Below are positions 1,815 to 64,000 of a stretch of DNA of 64,000 bases, one piece after another. The notes under the pieces are model-generated. The model was not told the origin of the DNA. It was given only the letters and a program-made list of their open reading frames with translations, and ran no database searches. The stretch is from NCBI GenBank assembly GCA_009914755.4, contig CP068257.2:11104001-11168000 (forward strand), written 5' to 3'. Position numbers and translations under genes: made by a program. Numbering within the stretch: position 1 is the first letter of the stretch; every line of letters starts with the position of its first letter. The stretch comes from the human T2T-CHM13v2.0 reference genome, Homo sapiens.

Positions 1815-1831
1815 TCCCTTTTCCAACGATA
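1815..1831 (-). promoter_or_regulatory. Degenerate CENP-B box, monomer 11 (predicted non-binding)
   Basis: TCCCTTTTCCAACGATA. Both essential blocks are hit (CCCG->CCCT and CGAA->CGAT). This form is conserved in all 36 units. Confidence 0.8.
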
Positions 1832-1869
1832 TCGTTAAAGCAATCTAAATATCAATTTGCAGAATCCAC

Positions 1870-29231: not shown

Positions 29232-30759
29232 AAAAATAGAGTTTCAAAGCTGCTCTGTAAAAAGAAAGGTTCCACTCTGTTAGCTGAGTACACACATCAC
29301 AAACTTGTTTCTCAGAATCCTTCTGTCTCGTTTTTATGGGAAGATACTTACTTTTCCACCGTAGGCATCAAAGCGCTCCAAATGTCCACATCCAGATACT
29401 CCAGAACGAGTGTTTCAAACCTGCTCTATGAAAGGGAATCTTCAACTCTATGAGTTGAATGCAGACATCAGAAAGAAATTTCTGAGAATGCTGCTGTCTA
29501 CCTTTTATTTGAATTCCCGCTTCCAACGAAATCCTCCAAGCTATCCAAATATCCACCTGCATTTTCCACAACAAGAGTGTTTCAAAACTGCTCTATCAAT
29601 AGAAATGTTCAACTCCTTTGGCTGGGTACACACATCACAAACAAGTTTCTGAGAATGCTTCTGTCTAGTTTTTATGGGAAGACGTTCCCTTTTTCACCAA
29701 AGGCATCCAAGCGCTCCAAATGTCCACATCCAGATACTCCAGAAAGAGTGTTTCAAACCTGCTCTATGAAAGGGAATCTTCAACTCTATGAGTTGAATGC
29801 AGACATCAGAAAGAAATTTCTGAGAATGCTGCTGTCTACCTTTTATTTGAATTCCCGCTTCCAACGAAATCCTCCAAGCTATCCAAATATCCACTTGCAG
29901 ATTCCACAAAAAGAGTGTTTCAAAACTGCTCTCTATCAATGGCAAAGTTCAACTCTGTTAGTTGAGGACACATATCACCAACAAGTTTCTGAGAATGCTT
30001 CTGTCTATTTTTTATGGGAAGATATTTCCTTTTTCACCATAGGCGTCAAGGCGATCGAAATGTCCACTTCCACAAACTACAAAAAGAGTGTTTCAAACCT
30101 GCTCTATGAAAGGCCATGTTCATCTCTATGAGTTGAATGGAAATATCCGAAAGAAATTTCTGGGAATGCTGCTGTCTAGTGTTTATACGAATTCCCGCTT
30201 CCAACGAAATCCTCAAAGCAATCCAAATATCCACTTGCAGAATCCACAAAAAGAGTGTTTCAAAACTGCTCTATCAATAGAAAGGTTCAACTCTTTTAGT
30301 TGAGTACACACATCACGAACAAGTTTCTGAGAATGCTTCTGTCTGGCTTTTATTGGAAGACGTTTCCTTTTCAACAAAGGCATCAAAGCGCTCCAAATGT
30401 CCACTTCCAGATTCTTCCAAAAGAGTGTTTCAAACGTGCTCAAAGTAAGGGAATGTTCAACTCTGTGACTTGAATGCAGATATCACCAAGTAGTTTCTAA
30501 TAGTGCTTCTGCCTACATTTTAGATGATGATATTCCCTTTTCCAACGAAATCGTTAGAGCTATCCAAATATCCAGTTACAGTTTCTACCAAAAGGGTGTT
30601 TCCAAATTGCTGCATCAAAAGAAAGGTTCAACTCTGTTAGTTGAGGACACACATCACAAAGAAGTTTGTGAGAATGCTTCTGTCTAGATTTTGTATGACG
30701 ATATTCCCTTTTCCAACGATATCGTTAAAGCAATCTAAATATCAATTTGCAGAATCCAC
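29232..30759 (-). repeat. HOR unit 17: 9-mer deletion variant (1528 bp; m1, m2, m3/5 fusion, m6-m11)
   Basis: Anchor spacing 1528 bp, i.e. 2 x 171 bp missing. The m3 end joins the m5 end inside the shared 'aaagcgctccaaatgtccac' tract. The junction is marked by the unique 'ggcatccaagcgc' at ~29705-29730. m7 'caccataggcg', m9 'ttcaacaaagg', m10 'ctgcctac' with box CCCT. Confidence 0.9.
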
Positions 30760-32629
30760 AAAAATAGAGTTTCAAAGCTGCTCTGTAAAAAGAAAGGTTC
30801 CACTCTGTTAGCTGAGTACACACATCACAAACTTGTTTCTGAGAATCCTTCTGTCTCGTTTTTATGGGAAGATATTTACTTTTCCACCGTAGGCATCAAA
30901 GCGCTCCAAATGTCCACATCCAGATACTCCAGAACGAGTGTTTCAAACCTGCTCTATGAAAGGGAATCTTCAACTCTATGAGTTGAATGCAGACATCAGA
31001 AAGAAATTTCTGAGAATGCTGCTGTCTACCTTTTATTTGAATTCCCGCTTCCAACGAAATCCTCCAAGCTATCCAAATATCCACCTGCATTTTCCACAAA
31101 AAGAGTGTTTCAAAACTGCTCTATCAATAGAAATGTTCAACTCCTTTGGCTGGGTACACACATCACAAACAAGTTTCTGAGAATGCTTCTGTCTAGTTTT
31201 TATGGGAAGACATTCCCTTTTTCACCAAAGACATCAAAGCGCTCCAAATGTCCACTTCCAGACACTACAAAAAGAGTGTTTCAAACGTGCTCTAAGAAAG
31301 CGAATGTTCAACTCTGTGACTTGAATGCAGATATCACAAAGTAGTTTCTGAGAGGGCTTCTGTCTAGATTTTAGATGATGATATTCCCGTTTCCAACGAA
31401 ATCATTAGAGCTATCCAAATATCCACTTACAGTTTCTACAAAAAGAGTGTTTCCAAACTGCTGCATCAAAAGAGAGGTTCCACTCTGTTAGCTGAGTACA
31501 CACATCACAAACTTGTTTCTCAGAATCCTTCTGTCTCGTTTTTATGGGAAGATATTTACTTTTTCACCGTAGGCATCAAAGCGCTCCAAATGTCCACATC
31601 CAGATACTCCAGAAAGAGTGTTTCAAACCTGCTCTATGAAAGGGAATCTTCAACTCTATGAGTTGAATGCAGACATCAGAAAGAAATTTCTGAGAATGCT
31701 GCTGTCTACCTTTTATTTGAATTCCCGCTTCCAACGAAATCCTCCAAGCTATCCAAATATCCACTTGCAGATTCCACAAAAAGAGTGTTTCAAAACTGCT
31801 CTCTATCAATGGCAAAGTTCAACTCTGTTAGTTGAGGACACATATCACCAACAAGTTTCTGAGAATGCTTCTGTCTATTTTTTATGGGAAGATATTTCCT
31901 TTTTCACCGTAGGCGTCAAGGCGATCGAAATGTCCACTTCCACAAACTACAAAAAGAGTGTTTCAAACCTGCTCTATGAAAGGCCATGTTCATCTCTATG
32001 AGTTGAATGGAAATATCCGAAAGAAATTTCTGGGAATGCTGCTGTCTAGTGTTTATACGAATTCCCGCTTCCAACGTAATCCTCAAAGCAATCCAAATAT
32101 CCACTTGCAGAATCCACAAAAAGAGTGTTTCAAAACTGCTCTATCAATAGAAAGGTTCAACTCTTTTAGTTGAGTACACACATCACGAACAAGTTTCTGA
32201 GAATGCTTCTGTCTGGCTTTTATTGGAAGACGTTTCCTTTTCACCAAAGGCATCAAAGCGCTCCAAATGTCCACTTCCAGATTCTTCCAAAAGAGTGTTT
32301 CAAACGTGCTCAAAGTAAGGGAATGTTCAACTCTGTGACTTGAATGCAGATATCACCAAGTAGTTTCTAATAGTGCTTCTGTCTACATTTTAGATGATGA
32401 TATTCCCGTTTCCAACGAAATCGCTAGAGCTATCCAAATATCCAGTTACAGTTTCTACCAAAAGGGTGTTTCCAAATTGCTGCATCAAAAGAAAGGTTCA
32501 ACTCTGTTAGTTGAGGACACACATCACAAAGAAGTTTGTGAGAATGCTTCTGTCTAGGTTTTGTATGACGATATTCCCTTTTCCAACGATATCGTTAAAG
32601 CAATCTAAATATCAATTTGCAGAATCCAC
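30760..32629 (-). repeat. HOR unit 18 (11-mer, 1870 bp; haplotype A)
   Basis: m1 'tctgagaatcc...gatatttacttttcc'. m3 'gacattccc/gacatcaaag'. 'gcagatatc'. m8 'cgtaat'. m10 intact box with 'cgctagag'. m11 'ctaggttttg'. Confidence 0.9.
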
Positions 32630-34497
32630 AAAAATAGAGTTTCAAAGCTGCTCTGTAAAAAGAAAGGTTCCACTCTGTTAGCTGAGTACACACATCACAA
32701 ACTTGTTTCTCAGAATCCTTCTGTCTCGTTTTTATGGGAAGATACTTACTTTTCCACCGTAGGCATCAAAGCGCTCCAAATGTCCACATCCAGATACTCC
32801 AGAACGAGTGTTTCAAACCTGCTCTATGAAAGGGAATCTTCAACTCTATGAGTTGAATGCAGACATCAGAAAGAAATTTCTGAGAATGCTGCTGTCTACC
32901 TTTTATTTGAATTCCCGCTTCCAACGAAATCCTCCAAGCTATCCAAATATCCACCTGCATTTTCCACAACAAGAGTGTTTCAAAACTGCTCTATCAATAG
33001 AAATGTTCAACTCCTTTGGCTGGGTACACACATCACAAACAAGTTTCTGAGAATGCTTCTGTCTAGTTTTTATGGGAAGACGTTCCCTTTTTCACCAAAG
33101 GCATCAAAGCGCTCCAAATGTCCACTTCCAGACACTACAAAAAGAGTGTTTCAAACGTGCTCTAAGAAAGCGAATGTTCAACTCTGTGACTTGAATGCAC
33201 ATATCACAAAGTAGTTTCTGAGAGGGCTTCTGTCTAGATTTTAGATGATGATATTCCCGTTTCCAACAAAATCATTAGAGCTTCCAAATATCCACTTACA
33301 GTTTCTACAAAAAGAGTGTTTCCAAACTGCTGCATCAAAAGAGAGGTTCCACTCTGTTAGCTGAGTACACACATCACAAACTTGTTTCTCAGAATCCTTC
33401 TGTCTCGTTTTTATGGGAAGATTATACTTTTTCACCGTAGGCATCAAAGCGCTCCAAATGTCCACATCCAGATACTCCAGAAAGAGTGTTTCAAACCTGC
33501 CCTATGAAAGGGAATCTTCAACTCTATGAGTTGAATGCAGACATCAGAAAGAAATTTCTGAGAATGCTGCTGTCTACCTTTTATTTGAATTCCCGCTTCC
33601 AACGAAATCCTCCAAGCTATCCAAATATCCACTTGCAGATTCCACAAAAAGAGTGTTTCAAAACTGCTCTCTATCAATGGCAAAGTTCAACTCTGTTAGT
33701 TGAGGACACATATCACCAACAAGTTTCTGAGAATGCTTCTGTCTATTTTTTATGGGAAGATATTTCCTTTTTCACCGTAGGCGTCAAGGCGATCGAAATG
33801 TCCACTTCCACAAACTACAAAAAGAGTGTTTCAAACCTGCTCTATGAAAGGCCATGTTCATCTCTATGAGTTGAATGGAAATATCCGAAAGAAATTTCTG
33901 GGAATGCTGCTGTCTAGTGTTTATACGAATTCCCGCTTCCAACGAAATCCTCAAAGCAATCCAAATATCCACTTGCAGAATCCACAAAAAGAGTGTTTCA
34001 AAACTGCTCTATCAATAGAAAGGTTCAACTCTTTTAGTTGAGTACACACATCACGAACAAGTTTCTGAGAATGCTTCTGTCTGGCTTTTATTGGAAGACG
34101 TTTCCTTTTCAACAAAGGCATCAAAGCGCTCCAAATGTCCACTTCCAGATTCTTCCAAAAGAGTGTTTCAAACGTGCTCAAAGTAAGGGAATGTTCAACT
34201 CTGTGACTTGAATGCAGATATCACCAAGTAGTTTCTAATAGTGCTTCTGCCTACATTTTAGATGATGATATTCCCTTTTCCAACGAAATCGTTAGAGCTA
34301 TCCAAATATCCAGTTACAGTTTCTACCAAAAGGGTGTTTCCAAATTGCTGCATCAAAAGAAAGGTTCAACTCTGTTAGTTGAGGACACACATCACAAAGA
34401 AGTTTGTGAGAATGCTTCTGTCTAGATTTTGTATGACGATATTCCCTTTTCCAACGATATCGTTAAAGCAATCTAAATATCAATTTGCAGAATCCAC
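32630..34497 (-). repeat. HOR unit 19 (11-mer, 1868 bp; haplotype B1)
   Basis: 'gcacatatc'. m4 box CAAA (33255-33271). Indel 'gggaagattatac' (~33415). m6 'cctgccctatg'. m9 'ttcaacaaagg'. m10 'ctgcctac' with box CCCT. Confidence 0.9.
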
Positions 34498-36367
34498 AAA
34501 AATAGAGTTTCAAAGCTGCTCTGTAAAAAGAAAGGTTCCACTCTGTTAGCTGAGTACACACATCACAAACTTGTTTCTGAGAATCCTTCTGTCTCGTTTT
34601 TATGGGAAGATATTTACTTTTCCACCGTAGGCATCAAAGCGCTCCAAATGTCCACATCCAGATACTCCAGAACGAGTGTTTCAAACCTGCTCTATGAAAG
34701 GGAATCTTCAACTCTATGAGTTGAATGCAGACATCAGAAAGAAATTTCTGAGAATGCTGCTGTCTACCTTTTATTTGAATTCCCGCTTCCAACGAAATCC
34801 TCCAAGCTATCCAAATATCCACCTGCATTTTCCACAAAAAGAGTGTTTCAAAACTGCTCTATCAATAGAAATGTTCAACTCCTTTGGCTGGGTACACACA
34901 TCACAAACAAGTTTCTGAGAATGCTTCTGTCTAGTTTTTATGGGAAGACATTCCCTTTTTCACCAAAGACATCAAAGCGCTCCAAATGTCCACTTCCAGA
35001 CACTACAAAAAGAGTGTTTCAAACGTGCTCTAAGAAAGCGAATGTTCAACTCTGTGACTTGAATGCAGATATCACAAAGTAGTTTCTGAGAGGGCTTCTG
35101 TCTAGATTTTAGATGATGATATTCCCGTTTCCAACGAAATCATTAGAGCTATCCAAATATCCACTTACAGTTTCTACAAAAAGAGTGTTTCCAAACTGCT
35201 GCATCAAAAGAGAGGTTCCACTCTGTTAGCCGAGTACACACATCACAAACTTGTTTCTCAGAATCCTTCTGTCTCGTTTTTATGGGAAGATATTTACTTT
35301 TTCACCGTAGGCATCAAAGCGCTCCAAATGTCCACATCCAGATACTCCAGAAAGAGTGTTTCAAACCTGCTCTATGAAAGGGAATCTTCAACTCTATGAG
35401 TTGAATGCAGACATCAGAAAGAAATTTCTGAGAATGCTGCTGTCTACCTTTTATTTGAATTCCCGCTTCCAACGAAATCCTCCAAGCTATCCAAATATCC
35501 ACTTGCAGATTCCACAAAAAGAGTGTTTCAAAACTGCTCTCTATCAATGGCAAAGTTCAACTCTGTTAGTTGAGGACACATATCACCAACAAGTTTCTGA
35601 GAATGCTTCTGTCTATTTTTTATGGGAAGATATTTCCTTTTTCACCGTAGGCGTCAAGGCGATCGAAATGTCCACTTCCACAAACTACAAAAAGAGTGTT
35701 TCAAACCTGCTCTATGAAAGGCCATGTTCATCTCTATGAGTTGAATGGAAATATCCGAAAGAAATTTCTGGGAATGCTGCTGTCTAGTGTTTATACGAAT
35801 TCCCGCTTCCAACGAAATCCTCAAAGCAATCCAAATATCCACTTGCAGAATCCACAAAAAGAGTGTTTCAAAACTGCTCTATCAATAGAAAGGTTCAACT
35901 CTTTTAGTTGAGTACACACATCACGAACAAGTTTCTGAGAATGCTTCTGTCTGGCTTTTATTGGAAGACGTTTCCTTTTCACCAAAGGCATCAAAGCGCT
36001 CCAAATGTCCACTTCCAGATTCTTCCAAAAGAGTGTTTCAAACGTGCTCAAAGTAAGGGAATGTTCAACTCTGTGACTTGAATGCAGATATCACCAAGTA
36101 GTTTCTAATAGTGCTTCTGTCTACATTTTAGATGATGATATTCCCGTTTCCAACGAAATCGCTAGAGCTATCCAAATATCCAGTTACAGTTTCTACCAAA
36201 AGGGTGTTTCCAAATTGCTGCATCAAAAGAAAGGTTCAACTCTGTTAGTTGAGGACACACATCACAAAGAAGTTTGTGAGAATGCTTCTGTCTAGATTTT
36301 GTATGACGATATTCCCTTTTCCAACGATATCGTTAAAGCAATCTAAATATCAATTTGCAGAATCCAC
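34498..36367 (-). repeat. HOR unit 20 (11-mer, 1870 bp; haplotype C)
   Basis: A-like first half. m5 'gccgag' (35221). m8 'cgaaat'. m10 intact box. m11 'ctagattttg'. Confidence 0.9.
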
Positions 36368-37895
36368 AAAAATAGAGTTTCAAAGCTGCTCTGTAAAAAG
36401 AAAGGTTCCACTCTGTTAGCTGAGTACACACATCACAAACTTGTTTCTCAGAATCCTTCTGTCTCGTTTTTATGGGAAGATACTTACTTTTCCACCGTAG
36501 GCATCAAAGCGCTCCAAATGTCCACATCCAGATACTCCAGAACGAGTGTTTCAAACCTGCTCTATGAAAGGGAATCTTCAACTCTATGAGTTGAATGCAG
36601 ACATCAGAAAGAAATTTCTGAGAATGCTGCTGTCTACCTTTTATTTGAATTCCCGCTTCCAACGAAATCCTCCAAGCTATCCAAATATCCACCTGCATTT
36701 TCCACAACAAGAGTGTTTCAAAACTGCTCTATCAATAGAAATGTTCAACTCCTTTGGCTGGGTACACACATCACAAACAAGTTTCTGAGAATGCTTCTGT
36801 CTAGTTTTTATGGGAAGACGTTCCCTTTTTCACCAAAGGCATCCAAGCGCTCCAAATGTCCACATCCAGATACTCCAGAAAGAGTGTTTCAAACCTGCTC
36901 TATGAAAGGGAATCTTCAACTCTATGAGTTGAATGCAGACATCAGAAAGAAATTTCTGAGAATGCTGCTGTCTACCTTTTATTTGAATTCCCGCTTCCAA
37001 CGAAATCCTCCAAGCTATCCAAATATCCACTTGCAGATTCCACAAAAAGAGTGTTTCAAAACTGCTCTCTATCAATGGCAAAGTTCAACTCTGTTAGTTG
37101 AGGACACATATCACCAACAAGTTTCTGAGAATGCTTCTGTCTATTTTTTATGGGAAGATATTTCCTTTTTCACCATAGGCGTCAAGGCGATCGAAATGTC
37201 CACTTCCACAAACTACAAAAAGAGTGTTTCAAACCTGCTCTATGAAAGGCCATGTTCATCTCTATGAGTTGAATGGAAATATCCGAAAGAAATTTCTGGG
37301 AATGCTGCTGTCTAGTGTTTATACGAATTCCCGCTTCCAACGAAATCCTCAAAGCAATCCAAATATCCACTTGCAGAATCCACAAAAAGAGTGTTTCAAA
37401 ACTGCTCTATCAATAGAAAGGTTCAACTCTTTTAGTTGAGTACACACATCACGAACAAGTTTCTGAGAATGCTTCTGTCTGGCTTTTATTGGAAGACGTT
37501 TCCTTTTCAACAAAGGCATCAAAGCGCTCCAAATGTCCACTTCCAGATTCTTCCAAAAGAGTGTTTCAAACGTGCTCAAAGTAAGGGAATGTTCAACTCT
37601 GTGACTTGAATGCAGATATCACCAAGTAGTTTCTAATAGTGCTTCTGCCTACATTTTAGATGATGATATTCCCTTTTCCAACGAAATCGTTAGAGCTATC
37701 CAAATATCCAGTTACAGTTTCTACCAAAAGGGTGTTTCCAAATTGCTGCATCAAAAGAAAGGTTCAACTCTGTTAGTTGAGGACACACATCACAAAGAAG
37801 TTTGTGAGAATGCTTCTGTCTAGATTTTGTATGACGATATTCCCTTTTCCAACGATATCGTTAAAGCAATCTAAATATCAATTTGCAGAATCCAC
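36368..37895 (-). repeat. HOR unit 21: 9-mer variant (1528 bp)
   Basis: Same m3/m5 junction 'ggcatccaagcgc' at ~36840-36866. Identical ORF artefacts to unit 17 (the 184-aa fusion ORF at 36713). Confidence 0.9.
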
Positions 37896-39765
37896 AAAAA
37901 TAGAGTTTCAAAGCTGCTCTGTAAAAAGAAAGGTTCCACTCTGTTAGCTGAGTACACACATCACAAACTTGTTTCTGAGAATCCTTCTGTCTCGTTTTTA
38001 TGGGAAGATATTTACTTTTCCACCGTAGGCATCAAAGCGCTCCAAATGTCCACATCCAGATACTCCAGAACGAGTGTTTCAAACCTGCTCTATGAAAGGG
38101 AATCTTCAACTCTATGAGTTGAATGCAGACATCAGAAAGAAATTTCTGAGAATGCTGCTGTCTACCTTTTATTTGAATTCCCGCTTCCAACGAAATCCTC
38201 CAAGCTATCCAAATATCCACCTGCATTTTCCACAAAAAGAGTGTTTCAAAACTGCTCTATCAATAGAAATGTTCAACTCCTTTGGCTGGGTACACACATC
38301 ACAAACAAGTTTCTGAGAATGCTTCTGTCTAGTTTTTATGGGAAGACATTCCCTTTTTCACCAAAGACATCAAAGCGCTCCAAATGTCCACTTCCAGACA
38401 CTACAAAAAGAGTGTTTCAAACGTGCTCTAAGAAAGCGAATGTTCAACTCTGTGACTTGAATGCAGATATCACAAAGTAGTTTCTGAGAGGGCTTCTGTC
38501 TAGATTTTAGATGATGATATTCCCGTTTCCAACGAAATCATTAGAGCTATCCAAATATCCACTTACAGTTTCTACAAAAAGAGTGTTTCCAAACTGCTGC
38601 ATCAAAAGAGAGGTTCCACTCTGTTAGCTGAGTACACACATCACAAACTTGTTTCTCAGAATCCTTCTGTCTCGTTTTTATGGGAAGATATTTACTTTTT
38701 CACCGTAGGCATCAAAGCGCTCCAAATGTCCACATCCAGATACTCCAGAAAGAGTGTTTCAAACCTGCTCTATGAAAGGGAATCTTCAACTCTATGAGTT
38801 GAATGCAGACATCAGAAAGAAATTTCTGAGAATGCTGCTGTCTACCTTTTATTTGAATTCCCGCTTCCAACGAAATCCTCCAAGCTATCCAAATATCCAC
38901 TTGCAGATTCCACAAAAAGAGTGTTTCAAAACTGCTCTCTATCAATGGCAAAGTTCAACTCTGTTAGTTGAGGACACATATCACCAACAAGTTTCTGAGA
39001 ATGCTTCTGTCTATTTTTTATGGGAAGATATTTCCTTTTTCACCGTAGGCGTCAAGGCGATCGAAATGTCCACTTCCACAAACTACAAAAAGAGTGTTTC
39101 AAACCTGCTCTATGAAAGGCCATGTTCATCTCTATGAGTTGAATGGAAATATCCGAAAGAAATTTCTGGGAATGCTGCTGTCTAGTGTTTATACGAATTC
39201 CCGCTTCCAACGTAATCCTCAAAGCAATCCAAATATCCACTTGCAGAATCCACAAAAAGAGTGTTTCAAAACTGCTCTATCAATAGAAAGGTTCAACTCT
39301 TTTAGTTGAGTACACACATCACGAACAAGTTTCTGAGAATGCTTCTGTCTGGCTTTTATTGGAAGACGTTTCCTTTTCACCAAAGGCATCAAAGCGCTCC
39401 AAATGTCCACTTCCAGATTCTTCCAAAAGAGTGTTTCAAACGTGCTCAAAGTAAGGGAATGTTCAACTCTGTGACTTGAATGCAGATATCACCAAGTAGT
39501 TTCTAATAGTGCTTCTGTCTACATTTTAGATGATGATATTCCCGTTTCCAACGAAATCGCTAGAGCTATCCAAATATCCAGTTACAGTTTCTACCAAAAG
39601 GGTGTTTCCAAATTGCTGCATCAAAAGAAAGGTTCAACTCTGTTAGTTGAGGACACACATCACAAAGAAGTTTGTGAGAATGCTTCTGTCTAGGTTTTGT
39701 ATGACGATATTCCCTTTTCCAACGATATCGTTAAAGCAATCTAAATATCAATTTGCAGAATCCAC
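37896..39765 (-). repeat. HOR unit 22 (11-mer, 1870 bp; haplotype A)
   Basis: Same markers as unit 18 ('cgtaat' at 39211, 'cgctagag' at 39551, 'ctaggttttg' at 39681). Confidence 0.9.
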
Positions 39766-54035: not shown

Positions 54036-55905
54036 AAAAATAGAGTTTCAAAGCTGCTCTGTAAAAAGAAAGGTTCCACTCTGTTAGCTGAGTACACACA
54101 TCACAAACTTGTTTCTGAGAATCCTTCTGTCTCGTTTTTATGGGAAGATATTTACTTTTCCACCGTAGGCATCAAAGCGCTCCAAATGTCCACATCCAGA
54201 TACTCCAGAACGAGTGTTTCAAACCTGCTCTATGAAAGGGAATCTTCAACTCTATGAGTTGAATGCAGACATCAGAAAGAAATTTCTGAGAATGCTGCTG
54301 TCTACCTTTTATTTGAATTCCCGCTTCCAACGAAATCCTCCAAGCTATCCAAATATCCACCTGCATTTTCCACAAAAAGAGTGTTTCAAAACTGCTCTAT
54401 CAATAGAAATGTTCAACTCCTTTGGCTGGGTACACACATCACAAACAAGTTTCTGAGAATGCTTCTGTCTAGTTTTTATGGGAAGACATTCCCTTTTTCA
54501 CCAAAGACATCAAAGCGCTCCAAATGTCCACTTCCAGACACTACAAAAAGAGTGTTTCAAACGTGCTCTAAGAAAGCGAATGTTCAACTCTGTGACTTGA
54601 ATGCAGATATCACAAAGTAGTTTCTGAGAGGGCTTCTGTCTAGATTTTAGATGATGATATTCCCGTTTCCAACGAAATCATTAGAGCTATCCAAATATCC
54701 ACTTACAGTTTCTACAAAAAGAGTGTTTCCAAACTGCTGCATCAAAAGAGAGGTTCCACTCTGTTAGCCGAGTACACACATCACAAACTTGTTTCTCAGA
54801 ATCCTTCTGTCTCGTTTTTATGGGAAGATATTTACTTTTTCACCGTAGGCATCAAAGCGCTCCAAATGTCCACATCCAGATACTCCAGAAAGAGTGTTTC
54901 AAACCTGCTCTATGAAAGGGAATCTTCAACTCTATGAGTTGAATGCAGACATCAGAAAGAAATTTCTGAGAATGCTGCTGTCTACCTTTTATTTGAATTC
55001 CCGCTTCCAACGAAATCCTCCAAGCTATCCAAATATCCACTTGCAGATTCCACAAAAAGAGTGTTTCAAAACTGCTCTCTATCAATGGCAAAGTTCAACT
55101 CTGTTAGTTGAGGACACATATCACCAACAAGTTTCTGAGAATGCTTCTGTCTATTTTTTATGGGAAGATATTTCCTTTTTCACCGTAGGCGTCAAGGCGA
55201 TCGAAATGTCCACTTCCACAAACTACAAAAAGAGTGTTTCAAACCTGCTCTATGAAAGGCCATGTTCATCTCTATGAGTTGAATGGAAATATCCGAAAGA
55301 AATTTCTGGGAATGCTGCTGTCTAGTGTTTATACGAATTCCCGCTTCCAACGTAATCCTCAAAGCAATCCAAATATCCACTTGCAGAATCCACAAAAAGA
55401 GTGTTTCAAAACTGCTCTATCAATAGAAAGGTTCAACTCTTTTAGTTGAGTACACACATCACGAACAAGTTTCTGAGAATGCTTCTGTCTGGCTTTTATT
55501 GGAAGACGTTTCCTTTTCACCAAAGGCATCAAAGCGCTCCAAATGTCCACTTCCAGATTCTTCCAAAAGAGTGTTTCAAACGTGCTCAAAGTAAGGGAAT
55601 GTTCAACTCTGTGACTTGAATGCAGATATCACCAAGTAGTTTCTAATAGTGCTTCTGTCTACATTTTAGATGATGATATTCCCGTTTCCAACGAAATCGC
55701 TAGAGCTATCCAAATATCCAGTTACAGTTTCTACCAAAAGGGTGTTTCCAAATTGCTGCATCAAAAGAAAGGTTCAACTCTGTTAGTTGAGGACACACAT
55801 CACAAAGAAGTTTGTGAGAATGCTTCTGTCTAGATTTTGTATGACGATATTCCCTTTTCCAACGATATCGTTAAAGCAATCTAAATATCAATTTGCAGAA
55901 TCCAC
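54036..55905 (-). repeat. HOR unit 31 (11-mer, 1870 bp; haplotype C)
   Basis: 'gccgag' (54771), 'cgtaat' (55351), m10 intact box. Confidence 0.9.
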
Positions 55906-57433
55906 AAAAATAGAGTTTCAAAGCTGCTCTGTAAAAAGAAAGGTTCCACTCTGTTAGCTGAGTACACACATCACAAACTTGTTTCTCAGAATCCTTCTGT
56001 CTCGTTTTTATGGGAAGATACTTACTTTTCCACCGTAGGCATCAAAGCGCTCCAAATGTCCACATCCAGATACTCCAGAACGAGTGTTTCAAACCTGCTC
56101 TATGAAAGGGAATCTTCAACTCTATGAGTTGAATGCAGACATCAGAAAGAAATTTCTGAGAATGCTGCTGTCTACCTTTTATTTGAATTCCCGCTTCCAA
56201 CGAAATCCTCCAAGCTATCCAAATATCCACCTGCATTTTCCACAACAAGAGTGTTTCAAAACTGCTCTATCAATAGAAATGTTCAACTCCTTTGGCTGGG
56301 TACACACATCACAAACAAGTTTCTGAGAATGCTTCTGTCTAGTTTTTATGGGAAGACGTTCCCTTTTTCACCAAAGGCATCCAAGCGCTCCAAATGTCCA
56401 CATCCAGATACTCCAGAAAGAGTGTTTCAAACCTGCTCTATGAAAGGGAATCTTCAACTCTATGAGTTGAATGCAGACATCAGAAAGAAATTTCTGAGAA
56501 TGCTGCTGTCTACCTTTTATTTGAATTCCCGCTTCCAACGAAATCCTCCAAGCTATCCAAATATCCACTTGCAGATTCCACAAAAAGAGTGTTTCAAAAC
56601 TGCTCTCTATCAATGGCAAAGTTCAACTCTGTTAGTTGAGGACACATATCACCAACAAGTTTCTGAGAATGCTTCTGTCTATTTTTTATGGGAAGATATT
56701 TCCTTTTTCACCATAGGCGTCAAGGCGATCGAAATGTCCACTTCCACAAACTACAAAAAGAGTGTTTCAAACCTGCTCTATGAAAGGCCATGTTCATCTC
56801 TATGAGTTGAATGGAAATATCCGAAAGAAATTTCTGGGAATGCTGCTGTCTAGTGTTTATACGAATTCCCGCTTCCAACGAAATCCTCAAAGCAATCCAA
56901 ATATCCACTTGCAGAATCCACAAAAAGAGTGTTTCAAAACTGCTCTATCAATAGAAAGGTTCAACTCTTTTAGTTGAGTACACACATCACGAACAAGTTT
57001 CTGAGAATGCTTCTGTCTGGCTTTTATTGGAAGACGTTTCCTTTTCAACAAAGGCATCAAAGCGCTCCAAATGTCCACTTCCAGATTCTTCCAAAAGAGT
57101 GTTTCAAACGTGCTCAAAGTAAGGGAATGTTCAACTCTGTGACTTGAATGCAGATATCACCAAGTAGTTTCTAATAGTGCTTCTGCCTACATTTTAGATG
57201 ATGATATTCCCTTTTCCAACGAAATCGTTAGAGCTATCCAAATATCCAGTTACAGTTTCTACCAAAAGGGTGTTTCCAAATTGCTGCATCAAAAGAAAGG
57301 TTCAACTCTGTTAGTTGAGGACACACATCACAAAGAAGTTTGTGAGAATGCTTCTGTCTAGATTTTGTATGACGATATTCCCTTTTCCAACGATATCGTT
57401 AAAGCAATCTAAATATCAATTTGCAGAATCCAC
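55906..57433 (-). repeat. HOR unit 32: 9-mer variant (1528 bp)
   Basis: Junction 'ggcatccaagcgc' at ~56380-56403. 184-aa fusion ORF at 56251. Confidence 0.9.
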
Positions 57434-59303
57434 AAAAATAGAGTTTCAAAGCTGCTCTGTAAAAAGAAAGGTTCCACTCTGTTAGCTGAGTACACACATC
57501 ACAAACTTGTTTCTGAGAATCCTTCTGTCTCGTTTTTATGGGAAGATATTTACTTTTCCACCGTAGGCATCAAAGCGCTCCAAATGTCCACATCCAGATA
57601 CTCCAGAACGAGTGTTTCAAACCTGCTCTATGAAAGGGAATCTTCAACTCTATGAGTTGAATGCAGACATCAGAAAGAAATTTCTGAGAATGCTGCTGTC
57701 TACCTTTTATTTGAATTCCCGCTTCCAACGAAATCCTCCAAGCTATCCAAATATCCACCTGCATTTTCCACAAAAAGAGTGTTTCAAAACTGCTCTATCA
57801 ATAGAAATGTTCAACTCCTTTGGCTGGGTACACACATCACAAACAAGTTTCTGAGAATGCTTCTGTCTAGTTTTTATGGGAAGACATTCCCTTTTTCACC
57901 AAAGACATCAAAGCGCTCCAAATGTCCACTTCCAGACACTACAAAAAGAGTGTTTCAAACGTGCTCTAAGAAAGCGAATGTTCAACTCTGTGACTTGAAT
58001 GCAGATATCACAAAGTAGTTTCTGAGAGGGCTTCTGTCTAGATTTTAGATGATGATATTCCCGTTTCCAACGAAATCATTAGAGCTATCCAAATATCCAC
58101 TTACAGTTTCTACAAAAAGAGTGTTTCCAAACTGCTGCATCAAAAGAGAGGTTCCACTCTGTTAGCTGAGTACACACATCACAAACTTGTTTCTCAGAAT
58201 CCTTCTGTCTCGTTTTTATGGGAAGATATTTACTTTTTCACCGTAGGCATCAAAGCGCTCCAAATGTCCACATCCAGATACTCCAGAAAGAGTGTTTCAA
58301 ACCTGCTCTATGAAAGGGAATCTTCAACTCTATGAGTTGAATGCAGACATCAGAAAGAAATTTCTGAGAATGCTGCTGTCTACCTTTTATTTGAATTCCC
58401 GCTTCCAACGAAATCCTCCAAGCTATCCAAATATCCACTTGCAGATTCCACAAAAAGAGTGTTTCAAAACTGCTCTCTATCAATGGCAAAGTTCAACTCT
58501 GTTAGTTGAGGACACATATCACCAACAAGTTTCTGAGAATGCTTCTGTCTATTTTTTATGGGAAGATATTTCCTTTTTCACCGTAGGCGTCAAGGCGATC
58601 GAAATGTCCACTTCCACAAACTACAAAAAGAGTGTTTCAAACCTGCTCTATGAAAGGCCATGTTCATCTCTATGAGTTGAATGGAAATATCCGAAAGAAA
58701 TTTCTGGGAATGCTGCTGTCTAGTGTTTATACGAATTCCCGCTTCCAACGAAATCCTCAAAGCAATCCAAATATCCACTTGCAGAATCCACAAAAAGAGT
58801 GTTTCAAAACTGCTCTATCAATAGAAAGGTTCAACTCTTTTAGTTGAGTACACACATCACGAACAAGTTTCTGAGAATGCTTCTGTCTGGCTTTTATTGG
58901 AAGACGTTTCCTTTTCAACAAAGGCATCAAAGCGCTCCAAATGTCCACTTCCAGATTCTTCCAAAAGAGTGTTTCAAACGTGCTCAAAGTAAGGGAATGT
59001 TCAACTCTGTGACTTGAATGCAGATATCACCAAGTAGTTTCTAATAGTGCTTCTGCCTACATTTTAGATGATGATATTCCCTTTTCCAACGAAATCGTTA
59101 GAGCTATCCAAATATCCAGTTACAGTTTCTACCAAAAGGGTGTTTCCAAATTGCTGCATCAAAAGAAAGGTTCAACTCTGTTAGTTGAGGACACACATCA
59201 CAAAGAAGTTTGTGAGAATGCTTCTGTCTAGATTTTGTATGACGATATTCCCTTTTCCAACGATATCGTTAAAGCAATCTAAATATCAATTTGCAGAATC
59301 CAC
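57434..59303 (-). repeat. HOR unit 33 (11-mer, 1870 bp; A-like first half, B-like second half)
   Basis: m3 'gacatcaaag' and 'gcagatatc', but m8 'cgaaat', m9 'ttcaacaaagg', m10 'ctgcctac' with box CCCT. Confidence 0.88.
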
Positions 59304-61173
59304 AAAAATAGAGTTTCAAAGCTGCTCTGTAAAAAGAAAGGTTCCACTCTGTTAGCTGAGTACACACATCACAAACTTGTTTCTGAGAATCCTTCTGTCT
59401 CGTTTTTATGGGAAGATATTTACTTTTCCACCGTAGGCATCAAAGCGCTCCAAATGTCCACATCCAGATACTCCAGAACGAGTGTTTCAAACCTGCTCTA
59501 TGAAAGGGAATCTTCAACTCTATGAGTTGAATGCAGACATCAGAAAGAAATTTCTGAGAATGCTGCTGTCTACCTTTTATTTGAATTCCCGCTTCCAACG
59601 AAATCCTCCAAGCTATCCAAATATCCACCTGCATTTTCCACAAAAAGAGTGTTTCAAAACTGCTCTATCAATAGAAATGTTCAACTCCTTTGGCTGGGTA
59701 CACACATCACAAACAAGTTTCTGAGAATGCTTCTGTCTAGTTTTTATGGGAAGACATTCCCTTTTTCACCAAAGACATCAAAGCGCTCCAAATGTCCACT
59801 TCCAGACACTACAAAAAGAGTGTTTCAAACGTGCTCTAAGAAAGCGAATGTTCAACTCTGTGACTTGAATGCAGATATCACAAAGTAGTTTCTGAGAGGG
59901 CTTCTGTCTAGATTTTAGATGATGATATTCCCGTTTCCAACGAAATCATTAGAGCTATCCAAATATCCACTTACAGTTTCTACAAAAAGAGTGTTTCCAA
60001 ACTGCTGCATCAAAAGAGAGGTTCCACTCTGTTAGCTGAGTACACACATCACAAACTTGTTTCTCAGAATCCTTCTGTCTCGTTTTTATGGGAAGATATT
60101 TACTTTTTCACCGTAGGCATCAAAGCGCTCCAAATGTCCACATCCAGATACTCCAGAAAGAGTGTTTCAAACCTGCTCTATGAAAGGGAATCTTCAACTC
60201 TATGAGTTGAATGCAGACATCAGAAAGAAATTTCTGAGAATGCTGCTGTCTACCTTTTATTTGAATTCCCGCTTCCAACGAAATCCTCCAAGCTATCCAA
60301 ATATCCACTTGCAGATTCCACAAAAAGAGTGTTTCAAAACTGCTCTCTATCAATGGCAAAGTTCAACTCTGTTAGTTGAGGACACATATCACCAACAAGT
60401 TTCTGAGAATGCTTCTGTCTATTTTTTATGGGAAGATATTTCCTTTTTCACCGTAGGCGTCAAGGCGATCGAAATGTCCACTTCCACAAACTACAAAAAG
60501 AGTGTTTCAAACCTGCTCTATGAAAGGCCATGTTCATCTCTATGAGTTGAATGGAAATATCCGAAAGAAATTTCTGGGAATGCTGCTGTCTAGTGTTTAT
60601 ACGAATTCCCGCTTCCAACGTAATCCTCAAAGCAATCCAAATATCCACTTGCAGAATCCACAAAAAGAGTGTTTCAAAACTGCTCTATCAATAGAAAGGT
60701 TCAACTCTTTTAGTTGAGTACACACATCACGAACAAGTTTCTGAGAATGCTTCTGTCTGGCTTTTATTGGAAGACGTTTCCTTTTCACCAAAGGCATCAA
60801 AGCGCTCCAAATGTCCACTTCCAGATTCTTCCAAAAGAGTGTTTCAAACGTGCTCAAAGTAAGGGAATGTTCAACTCTGTGACTTGAATGCAGATATCAC
60901 CAAGTAGTTTCTAATAGTGCTTCTGCCTACATTTTAGATGATGATATTCCCTTTTCCAACGAAATCGTTAGAGCTATCCAAATATCCAGTTACAGTTTCT
61001 ACCAAAAGGGTGTTTCCAAATTGCTGCATCAAAAGAAAGGTTCAACTCTGTTAGTTGAGGACACACATCACAAAGAAGTTTGTGAGAATGCTTCTGTCTA
61101 GATTTTGTATGACGATATTCCCTTTTCCAACGATATCGTTAAAGCAATCTAAATATCAATTTGCAGAATCCAC
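59304..61173 (-). repeat. HOR unit 34 (11-mer, 1870 bp; A-like unit in the slot where B1 is expected)
   Basis: A markers through m8 ('cgtaat' at 60611) and none of the B1 markers (no 'gcacatatc', no 'gattatac', no m4 CAAA). m10 does carry 'ctgcctac' with box CCCT. Confidence 0.88.
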
Positions 61174-63043
61174 AAAAATAGAGTTTCAAAGCTGCTCTGT
61201 AAAAAGAAAGGTTCCACTCTGTTAGCTGAGTACACACATCACAAACTTGTTTCTGAGAATCCTTCTGTCTCGTTTTTATGGGAAGATATTTACTTTTCCA
61301 CCGTAGGCATCAAAGCGCTCCAAATGTCCACATCCAGATACTCCAGAACGAGTGTTTCAAACCTGCTCTATGAAAGGGAATCTTCAACTCTATGAGTTGA
61401 ATGCAGACATCAGAAAGAAATTTCTGAGAATGCTGCTGTCTACCTTTTATTTGAATTCCCGCTTCCAACGAAATCCTCCAAGCTATCCAAATATCCACCT
61501 GCATTTTCCACAAAAAGAGTGTTTCAAAACTGCTCTATCAATAGAAATGTTCAACTCCTTTGGCTGGGTACACACATCACAAACAAGTTTCTGAGAATGC
61601 TTCTGTCTAGTTTTTATGGGAAGACATTCCCTTTTTCACCAAAGACATCAAAGCGCTCCAAATGTCCACTTCCAGACACTACAAAAAGAGTGTTTCAAAC
61701 GTGCTCTAAGAAAGCGAATGTTCAACTCTGTGACTTGAATGCAGATATCACAAAGTAGTTTCTGAGAGGGCTTCTGTCTAGATTTTAGATGATGATATTC
61801 CCGTTTCCAACGAAATCATTAGAGCTATCCAAATATCCACTTACAGTTTCTACAAAAAGAGTGTTTCCAAACTGCTGCATCAAAAGAGAGGTTCCACTCT
61901 GTTAGCCGAGTACACACATCACAAACTTGTTTCTCAGAATCCTTCTGTCTCGTTTTTATGGGAAGATATTTACTTTTTCACCGTAGGCATCAAAGCGCTC
62001 CAAATGTCCACATCCAGATACTCCAGAAAGAGTGTTTCAAACCTGCTCTATGAAAGGGAATCTTCAACTCTATGAGTTGAATGCAGACATCAGAAAGAAA
62101 TTTCTGAGAATGCTGCTGTCTACCTTTTATTTGAATTCCCGCTTCCAACGAAATCCTCCAAGCTATCCAAATATCCACTTGCAGATTCCACAAAAAGAGT
62201 GTTTCAAAACTGCTCTCTATCAATGGCAAAGTTCAACTCTGTTAGTTGAGGACACATATCACCAACAAGTTTCTGAGAATGCTTCTGTCTATTTTTTATG
62301 GGAAGATATTTCCTTTTTCACCGTAGGCGTCAAGGCGATCGAAATGTCCACTTCCACAAACTACAAAAAGAGTGTTTCAAACCTGCTCTATGAAAGGCCA
62401 TGTTCATCTCTATGAGTTGAATGGAAATATCCGAAAGAAATTTCTGGGAATGCTGCTGTCTAGTGTTTATACGAATTCCCGCTTCCAACGTAATCCTCAA
62501 AGCAATCCAAATATCCACTTGCAGAATCCACAAAAAGAGTGTTTCAAAACTGCTCTATCAATAGAAAGGTTCAACTCTTTTAGTTGAGTACACACATCAC
62601 GAACAAGTTTCTGAGAATGCTTCTGTCTGGCTTTTATTGGAAGACGTTTCCTTTTCACCAAAGGCATCAAAGCGCTCCAAATGTCCACTTCCAGATTCTT
62701 CCAAAAGAGTGTTTCAAACGTGCTCAAAGTAAGGGAATGTTCAACTCTGTGACTTGAATGCAGATATCACCAAGTAGTTTCTAATAGTGCTTCTGTCTAC
62801 ATTTTAGATGATGATATTCCCGTTTCCAACGAAATCGCTAGAGCTATCCAAATATCCAGTTACAGTTTCTACCAAAAGGGTGTTTCCAAATTGCTGCATC
62901 AAAAGAAAGGTTCAACTCTGTTAGTTGAGGACACACATCACAAAGAAGTTTGTGAGAATGCTTCTGTCTAGATTTTGTATGACGATATTCCCTTTTCCAA
63001 CGATATCGTTAAAGCAATCTAAATATCAATTTGCAGAATCCAC
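61174..63043 (-). repeat. HOR unit 35 (11-mer, 1870 bp; haplotype C)
   Basis: 'gccgag' (61911), 'cgtaat' (62471), m10 intact box. Confidence 0.9.
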
Positions 63044-64000
63044 AAAAATAGAGTTTCAAAGCTGCTCTGTAAAAAGAAAGGTTCCACTCTGTTAGCTGAG
63101 TACACACATCACAAACTTGTTTCTCAGAATCCTTCTGTCTCGTTTTTATGGGAAGATACTTACTTTTCCACCGTAGGCATCAAAGCGCTCCAAATGTCCA
63201 CATCCAGATACTCCAGAACGAGTGTTTCAAACCTGCTCTATGAAAGGGAATCTTCAACTCTATGAGTTGAATGCAGACATCAGAAAGAAATTTCTGAGAA
63301 TGCTGCTGTCTACCTTTTATTTGAATTCCCGCTTCCAACGAAATCCTCCAAGCTATCCAAATATCCACCTGCATTTTCCACAACAAGAGTGTTTCAAAAC
63401 TGCTCTATCAATAGAAATGTTCAACTCCTTTGGCTGGGTACACACATCACAAACAAGTTTCTGAGAATGCTTCTGTCTAGTTTTTATGGGAAGACGTTCC
63501 CTTTTTCACCAAAGGCATCCAAGCGCTCCAAATGTCCACATCCAGATACTCCAGAAAGAGTGTTTCAAACCTGCTCTATGAAAGGGAATCTTCAACTCTA
63601 TGAGTTGAATGCAGACATCAGAAAGAAATTTCTGAGAATGCTGCTGTCTACCTTTTATTTGAATTCCCGCTTCCAACGAAATCCTCCAAGCTATCCAAAT
63701 ATCCACTTGCAGATTCCACAAAAAGAGTGTTTCAAAACTGCTCTCTATCAATGGCAAAGTTCAACTCTGTTAGTTGAGGACACATATCACCAACAAGTTT
63801 CTGAGAATGCTTCTGTCTATTTTTTATGGGAAGATATTTCCTTTTTCACCATAGGCGTCAAGGCGATCGAAATGTCCACTTCCACAAACTACAAAAAGAG
63901 TGTTTCAAACCTGCTCTATGAAAGGCCATGTTCATCTCTATGAGTTGAATGGAAATATCCGAAAGAAATTTCTGGGAATGCTGCTGTCTAGTGTTTATAC
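63044..64000 (-). repeat. HOR unit 36: 9-mer variant, truncated by the window end
   Basis: Anchor at 63044. m3/m5 junction 'ggcatccaagcgc' at ~63518-63541. 184-aa fusion ORF at 63389. Confidence 0.85.

What the first reader, a model, noticed from the sequence alone, without database searches (positions are those of the whole stretch)
29232..64000. Haplotype-linked loss of CENP-B boxes gives the super-repeat an alternating 3 / 5 / 3 / 5 box density
A and C units keep five consensus boxes (m2, m4, m6, m8, m10). B1 units have m4 CGAA->CAAA and m10 CCCG->CCCT, both at positions essential for CENP-B binding, which leaves 3. The 9-mers have m4 deleted and m10 CCCT, which also leaves 3. The degenerate m11 box is fixed in all units. 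Within each 7.1-kb period the density of functional boxes is therefore modulated: 3 in 9 monomers, 5 in 11, 3 in 11, 5 in 11. Private lesions also occur in the older flank, CCGG at 3172-3188 and AGAA at 6233-6249. Box-poor haplotypes are nonetheless amplified as efficiently as box-rich ones, which is relevant to models linking CENP-B box density to HOR fitness.
Basis: partly seen in the sequence, partly recalled or inferred. Interest (0 to 1): 0.6.

Follow-up and report, generated by a model that had tools for sequence, protein, structure and literature searches.

The report
Uneven CENP-B boxes in chr13/21 alpha satellite

Summary
The window is alpha satellite with its CENP-B boxes on the minus strand. 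It is organised as the alpha21-I / D13Z1-D21Z1 11-monomer HOR (1870 bp; EcoRI 4mer/2mer/5mer ladder; 96-99% identical to the published T2T-CHM13 chr21 consensus).

**What holds**
- The 7136-bp super-repeat from 29234 is real: a 9-mer plus three 11-mers, with copies differing by 0-18 nt.

**What does not hold**
- The true counts from 29234 are 3,4,3,5 | 3,4,3,4 | 3,3,5 | 3,4,3,4 | 3,4,3,4, not 3/5/3/5.
- A 4/3 alternation already exists upstream, at 16147-29233.

All lesions hit the 9-nt core NTTCGNNNNANNCGGGN. Their excess at core positions is explained by general CpG hypermutability.

Box-poor and box-rich units are physically linked in one amplified block. Their equal copy number therefore says nothing about their relative fitness. 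The repeat, its five boxes plus dead motif, the 9-mer variant and a matching canonical/variant unit pattern are published.

Verdict: real, ordinary, low interest.

The parts
1..64000 (-). Alpha-satellite array. It is the 11-monomer HOR of the alpha21-I / D13Z1-D21Z1 (S2C13/21H1L) type. The standard orientation, with the CENP-B box read forward, is on the minus strand.
   Evidence: TRF finds period 171/338 across 1-63998. There are 376 monomers of 166-173 bp. The chain is 1..11 repeated. EcoRI spacing is 680/340/850. Identity to the published chr21 consensus monomers is 96-99%.
3..14956 (-). Units u0-u7: eight less homogeneous 11-mers with box counts 5,4,4,4,4,5,5,4. Lesions: 3172-3188 m8 GCCGGA; 4364-4380 and 8102-8118 m4 TTTTG; 6233-6249 m4 TTTCT; 14729-14745 m10 AAGGGA.
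14957..16146 (-). 7-monomer variant unit (u8). An m1/m5 hybrid junction removes the m2 and m4 boxes, leaving 3 intact boxes.
16147..29233 (-). Units u9-u15: a 22-monomer (3.74-kb) alternation of A-type and B-type 11-mers with box counts 4,3,4,3,4,3,4. m8 TTACG at 17448, 21187, 24926, 28665. m4 TTTTG at 18640, 22379, 26118. m10 AAGGGA at 19658, 23397, 27136.
29234..36369 (-). Super-repeat copy P1 (7136 bp). It holds 9-mer u16 (3 boxes; m10 lesion 30534-30550; m3/m5 hybrid monomer 29572-29742), A unit u17 (4 boxes; m8 lesion 32063-32079), B unit u18 (3 boxes; m4 lesion 33255-33271, m10 lesion 34272-34288) and C unit u19 (5 boxes).
36370..43505 (-). Super-repeat copy P2 (7136 bp). It holds 9-mer u20 (3 boxes; m10 lesion 37670), u21 (4 boxes; m8 lesion 39199), u22 (3 boxes; m4 lesion 40391, m10 lesion 41408) and u23 (4 boxes; m8 lesion 42937).
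43506..48771 (-). Super-repeat copy P3 (5266 bp, 31 monomers). It holds 9-mer u24 (3 boxes; m10 lesion 44806), A/B recombinant u25 (3 boxes; m4 lesion 45657, m10 lesion 46674) and u26 (5 boxes). It equals P1 minus exactly 1870 bp, with 0 mismatches.
48772..55907 (-). Super-repeat copy P4 (7136 bp). It holds 9-mer u27 (3 boxes; m10 lesion 50072), u28 (4 boxes; m8 lesion 51601), u29 (3 boxes; m4 lesion 52793, m10 lesion 53810) and u30 (4 boxes; m8 lesion 55339).
55908..63045 (-). Super-repeat copy P5 (7138 bp), 16-18 nt different from P1, P2 and P4. It holds 9-mer u31 (3 boxes; m10 lesion 57208), recombinant u32 (4 boxes; m10 lesion 59078), recombinant u33 (3 boxes; m8 lesion 60607, m10 lesion 60948) and u34 (4 boxes; m8 lesion 62477).
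63046..64000 (-). Start of a sixth super-repeat copy: a 9-mer cut by the window end. Its m2 and m6 boxes are intact.

Best explanation
The window is a stretch of the active-type alpha-satellite HOR array shared by human chromosomes 13 and 21 (alpha21-I, 11 monomers, five CENP-B boxes in alternate monomers plus one naturally dead motif).

Individual HOR copies picked up ordinary neutral mutations. Three of these are recurrent single-base changes inside boxes: m4 C4>T, m8 T3>A and m10 C13>A. One is a 342-bp unequal-exchange deletion (m3/m5 hybrid) that removed the m4 box and created the 9-mer.

Unequal crossing-over or tandem duplication then copied blocks of neighbouring units. First came a two-unit A/B block (22 monomers, 16147-29233). 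Next came a four-unit block of 9-mer/A/B/C (42 monomers, 7136 bp, from 29234). Each block carries its units' box lesions along with it. The density of intact boxes therefore repeats with the block: 3,4,3,5 or 3,4,3,4 per unit.

Later exchanges within the array produced three things:
- the 31-monomer copy;
- the recombinant units in the last copy;
- the C units that differ only by the m8 lesion.

Shown: the sequence facts, the block identity, and the haplotype linkage. Inferred: that each 8-of-9 motif no longer binds CENP-B, that the lesions are selectively neutral, and the order of the events.
For: **Identity of the repeat**
- Monomer chain.
- EcoRI 4mer/2mer/5mer ladder, matching Ohzeki 2002.
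- Five boxes plus a dead motif with two variations, matching.
- 96-99% identity to the T2T-CHM13 chr21 11-mer consensus.
- The published chr21 array shows the same canonical/variant pattern, CCCVCCCVCCVCCCVCCCV..., and a 9-monomer variant lacking two monomers.

**Block amplification**
- P1/P2/P4 differ by 2-6 nt in 7136 bp.
- P3 is P1 minus exactly one 1870-bp unit, with 0 mismatches.
- Same-class units differ by 0-3 nt.

**Lesions older than the block**
- The m4 and m10 lesions occur separately in u2, u4 and u7, and together in u10-u14.

**Neutral origin**
- Variable columns are enriched at core positions (5/45 vs 54/1825, p=0.012).
- CpG columns are hypervariable everywhere (11/70 vs 48/1800, p=6e-6).
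- Box CpGs are no more variable than other CpGs (4/20 vs 7/50, p=0.38).
- Ti:Tv is 29:26. This fits the transversion-rich spectrum reported for active alpha satellite.

**Recombination within the array**
- Haplotype table.
- u19 and u23 differ by one base, the m8 lesion.
Against: - No binding, methylation or CENP-A data can be read from the sequence, so 'functional box' is only a motif call.
- 8-of-9 motifs might retain weak binding in vivo. An equid ChIP study reports peaks over motifs with at least 7 of 9 core bases.
- The neutrality test rests on only 5 variable box columns and has little power.
- All five box variants hit core positions and none hits the 40 non-core box positions. This could also reflect something non-neutral.
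- The origin of the window (which genome, chromosome 13 or 21) could not be confirmed directly.
- The published consensus is given in the box-forward orientation, whereas here the boxes lie on the minus strand. The window may therefore be reverse-complemented relative to the published array; read in that direction the unit pattern no longer matches throughout. The published pattern matches only if its quoted string starts after the first 9-mer.
Confidence: 0.85

Rival explanations
1. The periodic thinning of boxes is selected. The array is tuned towards a lower or patterned CENP-B occupancy, for example to space CENP-B dimers/loops or to phase CENP-A nucleosomes. The box-depleted block was amplified because of that pattern.
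For: - Box density falls from 0.40 per monomer in u0-u8 to 0.33-0.34 in the more homogeneous u9-u34, against an ideal of 0.4545.
- All 5 variable box columns are core positions, and none of the 40 non-core box columns varies.
- The chr21 CDR has a lower box density (2.33/kb) than chr13 (2.61/kb) in T2T-CHM13.
Against: - CpG hypermutability accounts for the core-position excess.
- Per-block density is nearly flat (0.33-0.36), so there is no striking pattern to select.
- Across thousands of haplotypes, CDRs are enriched for intact boxes, not depleted (2.60 vs 2.52 per kb).
- Lesion combinations are reshuffled by recombination without any regularity (u25, u32, u33).
Confidence: 0.07
2. The lesions spread mainly by gene conversion between units or between monomers (for example m10 acquiring the AAGGGA half of the neighbouring dead m11 motif), rather than by block duplication of once-mutated copies.
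For: - The m10 lesion makes the 3' half of the box identical to m11. A second linked difference 16 bp away also matches m11.
- The m8 lesion is the sole difference between u19 and u23.
- The m8 lesion is shared by A and C' units that otherwise differ.
Against: - The linked column (10,134) is T in all other monomer types and in the older units, so T is simply ancestral there.
- The third linked change (col 92) does not match m11.
- Whole 7136-bp copies with 0-6 differences cannot be produced by short conversion tracts.
- Conversion may explain the m8 state of the C units, but not the periodicity.
Confidence: 0.05
3. The periodic pattern is an assembly artefact: near-identical repeats were collapsed or duplicated by the assembler.
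For: Very high identity between copies is the regime in which assemblers fail. No reads are available to check this here.
Against: - Copies are not identical. They carry private differences, a clean one-unit deletion and recombinant units.
- An independent analysis of T2T-CHM13 chr21 reports the same canonical/variant pattern.
- Restriction-enzyme studies from before genome sequencing already detected 7mer, 9mer and 22mer subfamilies on chromosome 21.
Confidence: 0.03

Closest known systems
alpha21-I 11mer (D21Z1/D13Z1; S2C13/21H1L), as cloned and used for artificial chromosomes (Ikeno 1994/1998; Ohzeki 2002, PMC2173396)
   Same: - 11 monomers.
- EcoRI 4mer/2mer/5mer sub-fragments.
- Five CENP-B boxes in every other monomer.
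- One extra motif with two variations that lacks binding.
   Different: - Only 5 of the 29 full 11-mers here keep all five boxes; 16 have four and 8 have three.
- The cloned reference unit is the intact form.
T2T-CHM13 chromosome 21 'Cascading 11mer HOR array' with its 9-monomer variant and the CCCVCCCVCCV... pattern (Gluncic et al. 2025, PMC12385485)
   Same: - Consensus monomers 96-99% identical.
- One monomer type used twice per unit (m1~m5, m2~m6).
- Variant lacking two monomers, with a hybrid monomer.
- The order of canonical and variant units matches the window from its second block onward.
   Different: - That paper does not tabulate CENP-B boxes ('CENP-B' occurs only in its reference list).
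- Its quoted pattern would have to start after the window's first 9-mer.
- Its consensus is given on the strand opposite to the window's + strand.
- Identity of the locus is inferred, not proven.
Local CENP-B-box density variation caused by HOR structural variants and haplotypes in human active arrays (bioRxiv 10.64898/2026.09.03.749043; Parl 2024, PMC11060027)
   Same: - HOR structural variants (StVs) reshape local box density.
- Densities are about 2-3 per kb.
- CpG-rich boxes sit in a transversion-rich mutational background.
   Different: Here most of the density loss comes from point mutations inside boxes (37 lesions) rather than only from changes in monomer composition. The window's density (2.0-2.35 per kb) is below the population means of 2.52-2.60.
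CENP-B box decay in equid CENPB-sat (Cappelletti et al. 2025, PMC11804003)
   Same: Recurrent loss of boxes through changes at C4 and C13, the two CpG cytosines of the core.
   Different: - In the donkey both changes are C>T transitions and the satellite is uncoupled from CENP-A.
- Here C13 changes to A.
- Most boxes in the array remain intact.

Membership tests
Alpha satellite, alpha21-I / D13Z1-D21Z1 11-mer HOR (S2C13/21H1L) | Tandem monomers of about 171 bp | tested here: met
   TRF period 171 over 1-63998. There are 376 monomers of 166-173 bp.
Alpha satellite, alpha21-I / D13Z1-D21Z1 11-mer HOR (S2C13/21H1L) | An 11-monomer higher-order unit of about 1.87 kb, with units nearly identical and monomers within a unit 67-98% identical | tested here: met
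   Chain 1..B repeated. Best monomer identity to the reference unit is at least 96.5%, mean 99.5%. The intra-unit matrix runs from 0.67 to 0.98.
Alpha satellite, alpha21-I / D13Z1-D21Z1 11-mer HOR (S2C13/21H1L) | EcoRI cuts the unit into 4mer, 2mer and 5mer fragments (Ohzeki 2002) | tested here: met
   GAATTC spacing is 680/340/850 throughout. The description is in PMC2173396.
Alpha satellite, alpha21-I / D13Z1-D21Z1 11-mer HOR (S2C13/21H1L) | Five CENP-B boxes in alternate monomers, plus one inactive motif with two variations | tested here: met
   The consensus unit has boxes in m2, m4, m6, m8 and m10. m11 is TATCGTTGGAAAAGGGA in 35 of 35 units. Literature.
Alpha satellite, alpha21-I / D13Z1-D21Z1 11-mer HOR (S2C13/21H1L) | Sequence match to a published chr21 consensus | tested here: met
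   All ten published monomer types align at 95.9-99.4%. The published text comes from a PDF and contains small indels.
Alpha satellite, alpha21-I / D13Z1-D21Z1 11-mer HOR (S2C13/21H1L) | Assignment to chromosome 21 rather than 13, and to a particular genome | not testable with these tools
   No human genome collection is available. The only support is the similarity of the unit pattern to PMC12385485.
Functional CENP-B box | All nine core bases present: NTTCGNNNNANNCGGGN | tested here: met
   133 sites have 9/9, all on the minus strand. 37 sites have 8/9 (the lesions) and fail. The m11 motif has 7/9 and fails.
Functional CENP-B box | CENP-B actually binds (EMSA, ChIP or footprint) | not testable with these tools
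   Only the m11-type double mutant has published gel-shift data, showing no competition at 100-fold excess. The single mutants T3A, C4T and C13A were not found tested in the papers read.
Functional CENP-B box | Both CpGs of the box unmethylated | not testable with these tools
   Methylation reduces binding (Tanaka 2005, as cited). The sequence alone gives no methylation state.
Multi-unit 'super-HOR' block amplification | A period spanning several HOR units, with copies more alike than the neighbouring units within a copy | tested here: met
   7136-bp copies differ by 0-18 nt. The unit classes A, B and C within a copy carry different haplotypes at the 38 informative columns.

The most novel reading that the evidence does not exclude
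The most homogeneous, and so presumably youngest, part of this chr13/21 array is also its most box-depleted part: 0.33-0.34 intact boxes per monomer, against 0.40 in the flank and 0.45 in the intact unit. If this block underlies the kinetochore (CDR) on chromosome 21, that chromosome would run counter to the population-wide rule that CDRs sit on box-enriched sequence. This could bear on why the chr21 CDR has a low box density, and possibly on chr21 segregation fidelity.
Probability: 0.1. Interest if true: 0.5.

Novelty: already known. Interest (0 to 1): 0.15.

Why it matters
It matters little beyond bookkeeping. The result gives a clean, worked example of how point mutations and a two-monomer deletion are frozen into a larger amplification unit, producing a periodic CENP-B box density inside a human active-type array.

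The correction matters for anyone using this stretch to argue about box density and HOR 'fitness'. Linked units in one amplified block cannot be used as independent evidence. Per block, the density is almost constant at 0.33-0.36 boxes per monomer.

Only if the block coincides with the chr21 kinetochore would the box depletion be of wider interest.

Tried and rejected
1. A loose 10-nt monomer anchor gave many spurious hits. It was replaced by a 15-nt anchor with de-duplication.
2. Whole-unit MAFFT put the 9-mer gap at the unit start and produced a false block of 'variants'. It was replaced by per-monomer-type alignments.
3. I tested whether box lesions are over-represented at core positions. 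There is a nominal excess (p=0.012), but it is fully explained by CpG hypermutability. I therefore rejected it as evidence of selection.
4. I tested whether the m10 lesion came from conversion by the neighbouring dead m11 motif. The result is inconclusive, leaning to no, because the linked matching base is simply ancestral.
5. I looked for additional boxes on the + strand or in odd monomers. There are none at 7 or more of 9 core bases, other than non-box motifs.
6. Primary binding and structural papers could not be read (Tanaka 2001, PMC125324; Altemose 2022, PMC9233505). Masumoto 1993 was not looked for, because it is a book chapter that this library was not expected to hold. The core definition therefore rests on secondary citations and on the Ohzeki 2002 figure legend.
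7. A term search of Parl 2024 for chr21 returned nothing. The numbers were taken from its Table 1 instead.
8. The protein, RNA, phage, plasmid and bacterial tools were not used, because the window is non-coding primate satellite.
Full report
**What the window is**

Tandem Repeats Finder reports one array of 171/338-bp periods over 1-63998. Anchoring on a conserved 15-mer gives 376 complete monomers of 166-173 bp. I classified each monomer against one internal reference unit. The result is a clean chain 1-2-...-11 repeated, with mean identity 99.5% to the reference monomers. Monomers within a unit are 67-98% alike. [quoted passage not shown]

The CENP-B box reads forward on the minus strand. 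The strict core NTTCGNNNNANNCGGGN has 133 matches on the minus strand and none on the plus strand, against zero in shuffles.

Four independent features identify the repeat as the alpha21-I / D13Z1-D21Z1 11-mer:
- EcoRI sites are spaced 680/340/850 bp. This matches the 4mer/2mer/5mer sub-fragments described by Ohzeki et al. 2002 (PMC2173396).
- There are five boxes in alternate monomers, as that paper states.
- A sixth, dead motif with two deviations from the core (TATCGTTGGAAAAGGGA) is fixed in 35 of 35 units. It corresponds to the motif the same paper showed to lack binding, and which it copied into all five boxes to make its mutant array.
- All ten consensus monomer types published for the T2T-CHM13 chromosome 21 11-mer array align to the window's unit at 96-99%. 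The residue is largely PDF-extraction noise.

Chromosome 21 versus 13, and the genome of origin, cannot be tested with the tools available.

**Unit structure**

The 36 units run as follows:
- eight 11-mers;
- one 7-mer (14957-16146);
- seven 11-mers;
- then from 29234: 9,11,11,11 | 9,11,11,11 | 9,11,11 | 9,11,11,11 | 9,11,11,11 | 9 (cut by the window end).

The 9-mer has an m3/m5 hybrid third monomer. A 342-bp unequal exchange therefore removed the tail of m3, all of the m4 box and the head of m5. The 7-mer is an m1/m5 hybrid.

Gluncic et al. 2025 (PMC12385485) describe the same thing in T2T-CHM13 chr21. Their variant lacks two monomers and has a new hybrid monomer type. It is arranged among canonical copies as CCCVCCCVCCVCCCVCCCVCCCV.... 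The window's order matches that string from its second block onward. Earlier restriction-enzyme work had already seen 7mer, 9mer and 22mer subfamilies on chromosome 21.

**The super-repeat is real**

The four-unit blocks are 7136 bp long:
- P1, P2 and P4 differ from each other by 2-6 substitutions.
- P3 equals P1 minus exactly one 1870-bp unit, with no mismatches.
- P5 differs from the others by 16-18 nt.

Same-class units in different blocks differ by 0-3 nt.

Upstream, 16147-29233 is a simpler two-unit (22-monomer) alternation of the same A-type and B-type units.

**The box census**

I extracted the 17-mer at the box position of every monomer and scored it against the nine-base core. Five kinds of lesion appear in the five box-bearing monomers:

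| Monomer | Change | Box position | Units |
|---|---|---|---|
| m4 | TTCG>TTTG | C4>T | 9 |
| m4 | TTCG>TTCT | G5>T | 1 (6233-6249) |
| m8 | TTTCG>TTACG | T3>A | 11 |
| m8 | CGGG>CCGG | G14>C | 1 (3172-3188) |
| m10 | CGGG>AGGG | C13>A | 15 |

A scan for 8-of-9 core matches returns exactly these 37 sites and nothing else.

On the plus strand it reads CGAAA>CGTAA. I confirmed it by direct reading at 32063-32079 and by exact search, which finds 11 copies. It sits in every A unit and in three of the five C units.

The true counts from 29234 are 3,4,3,5 | 3,4,3,4 | 3,3,5 | 3,4,3,4 | 3,4,3,4, not 3/5/3/5. Of the 29 full 11-mers in the window, only 5 keep all five boxes; 16 have four and 8 have three.

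**Haplotype linkage and history**

Per-monomer alignments give 59 variable columns in 1870, of which 38 are informative.
- The m4 and m10 lesions ride on a B-type haplotype. The m8 lesion rides on the A type.
- Linkage is not absolute. The m4 lesion occurs alone in u2 and u4, and the m10 lesion alone in u7, both in the less homogeneous flank.
- u25 is an A-left/B-right recombinant.
- u32 and u33 combine A-type left halves with the B-type m10.
- u19 and u23 differ by a single base, the m8 lesion.

So the lesions predate the super-repeat and have been reshuffled by exchange or conversion since.

**Are the mutated positions essential?**

All five lie in the nine-base core. The papers I could read treat this core as required for binding (PMC4904201; PMC10651114; bioRxiv 10.64898/2026.05.28.728588; the figure legend of PMC2173396).

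Direct binding data exist only for the m11-type double mutant, which shows no competition at 100-fold excess. Loss of binding by each single mutant is an inference. An equid ChIP study reports CENP-B peaks over motifs with 7 or more of the 9 core bases, so weak residual binding cannot be excluded. Binding also depends on CpG methylation (Tanaka 2005, as cited), which the sequence does not show.

**Is the box loss more than chance?**

- Variable columns are over-represented at core positions: 5 of 45, against 54 of 1825 elsewhere (p=0.012).
- Four of the five lesion columns lie in the two core CpGs.
- CpG columns are hypervariable throughout the unit: 11 of 70, against 48 of 1800 (p=6e-6).
- Box CpGs are no more variable than other CpGs: 4 of 20 against 7 of 50 (p=0.38).

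Ordinary CpG-associated mutation suffices. The overall Ti:Tv is 29:26, and four of the five box lesions are transversions. This agrees with the transversion-rich spectrum recently reported for active alpha satellite.

**Mechanism**

The best-supported account is passive. Single HOR copies acquired neutral lesions and one deletion. Unequal exchange then amplified first a two-unit block and later a four-unit block, so the box density repeats with the block.

Box density per monomer:

| Region | Intact boxes per monomer |
|---|---|
| u0-u8 | 0.40 |
| u9-u15 | 0.325 |
| u16-u34 | 0.342 |
| Each block P1-P5 | 0.33-0.36 |
| Intact unit (ideal) | 0.4545 |

Because the four unit types are copied together, their equal representation carries no information about relative 'fitness'.

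The alternatives are weaker:
- Selection for a patterned or reduced density has no positive support. It also runs against the population-scale finding that CDRs are enriched for intact boxes (2.60 vs 2.52 per kb).
- Conversion from the neighbouring m11 motif as the source of the m10 lesion is not supported.
- An assembly artefact is unlikely, given the private differences, the clean recombinants and independent reports of the pattern.

**Comparison with what is known, and novelty**

The following are all published:
- the repeat family, its five boxes and dead motif;
- the 9-mer and 7-mer variants;
- the canonical/variant periodicity in chr21;
- the general point that HOR variants reshape local box density;
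- the chr21 CDR box density of 2.33/kb in T2T-CHM13, lower than chr13's 2.61/kb.

A per-unit tabulation of which box is lost in which unit type was not found in the papers read. It is, however, a descriptive detail of a sequence whose box annotation already exists. I therefore rate the finding as already known in kind and of low interest.

One reading is still open and would raise interest. This box-depleted, highly homogeneous block may coincide with the chr21 kinetochore. The published array (10.96-11.30 Mb) and CDR (11.03-11.18 Mb) coordinates make overlap possible. I could not place the window, so I give this a low probability.

Noticed in passing
window 16147-29233: There is a two-unit (22-monomer, 3.74-kb) alternation of A-type and B-type 11-mers with box counts 4,3,4,3,4,3,4.
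   Followed up: yes
window 14957-16146: There is a single 7-monomer variant unit with an m1/m5 hybrid monomer. It loses the m2 and m4 boxes. It separates the heterogeneous units u0-u7 from the homogeneous ones.
   Followed up: partly
window 43506-48771: This super-repeat copy has only 31 monomers. It is identical to copy P1 except for an exact 1870-bp deletion. The junction unit u25 (45034-46901) is an A-left/B-right recombinant, a textbook unequal-crossover product.
   Followed up: yes
window 57436-61175: Units u32 and u33 in the last full copy are recombinants. They have A-type left halves and a B-type m10, and u33 also carries the m8 lesion. As a result this copy differs from the others by 16-18 nt.
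   Followed up: partly
window 34500-36369 vs 41636-43505: Units u19 and u23 differ by a single base in 1870, and that base is the m8 box lesion (42937-42953). The cause is either a very recent mutation or reversion, or a short conversion tract.
   Followed up: partly
whole window: Among 55 biallelic variable columns the transition:transversion ratio is 29:26. This is far below the roughly 2:1 usually quoted for the genome as a whole (my own recollection, not checked here). It is consistent with a recent report of a transversion-rich spectrum in active alpha satellite.
   Followed up: partly
any 11-mer unit, e.g. 9347-11216: Monomers m2 and m6 are 98% identical and m1 and m5 are 94% identical. 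The 11-mer therefore contains an internal duplication, which explains why the 4-monomer (7-mer) and 2-monomer (9-mer) deletions arise easily.
   Followed up: partly
m10 lesion sites, e.g. 34272-34288: The m10 lesion makes the 3' half of the box (GGAAAAGGGA) identical to that of the adjacent dead m11 motif. Conversion from m11 was considered, but the flanking evidence is ambiguous.
   Followed up: partly
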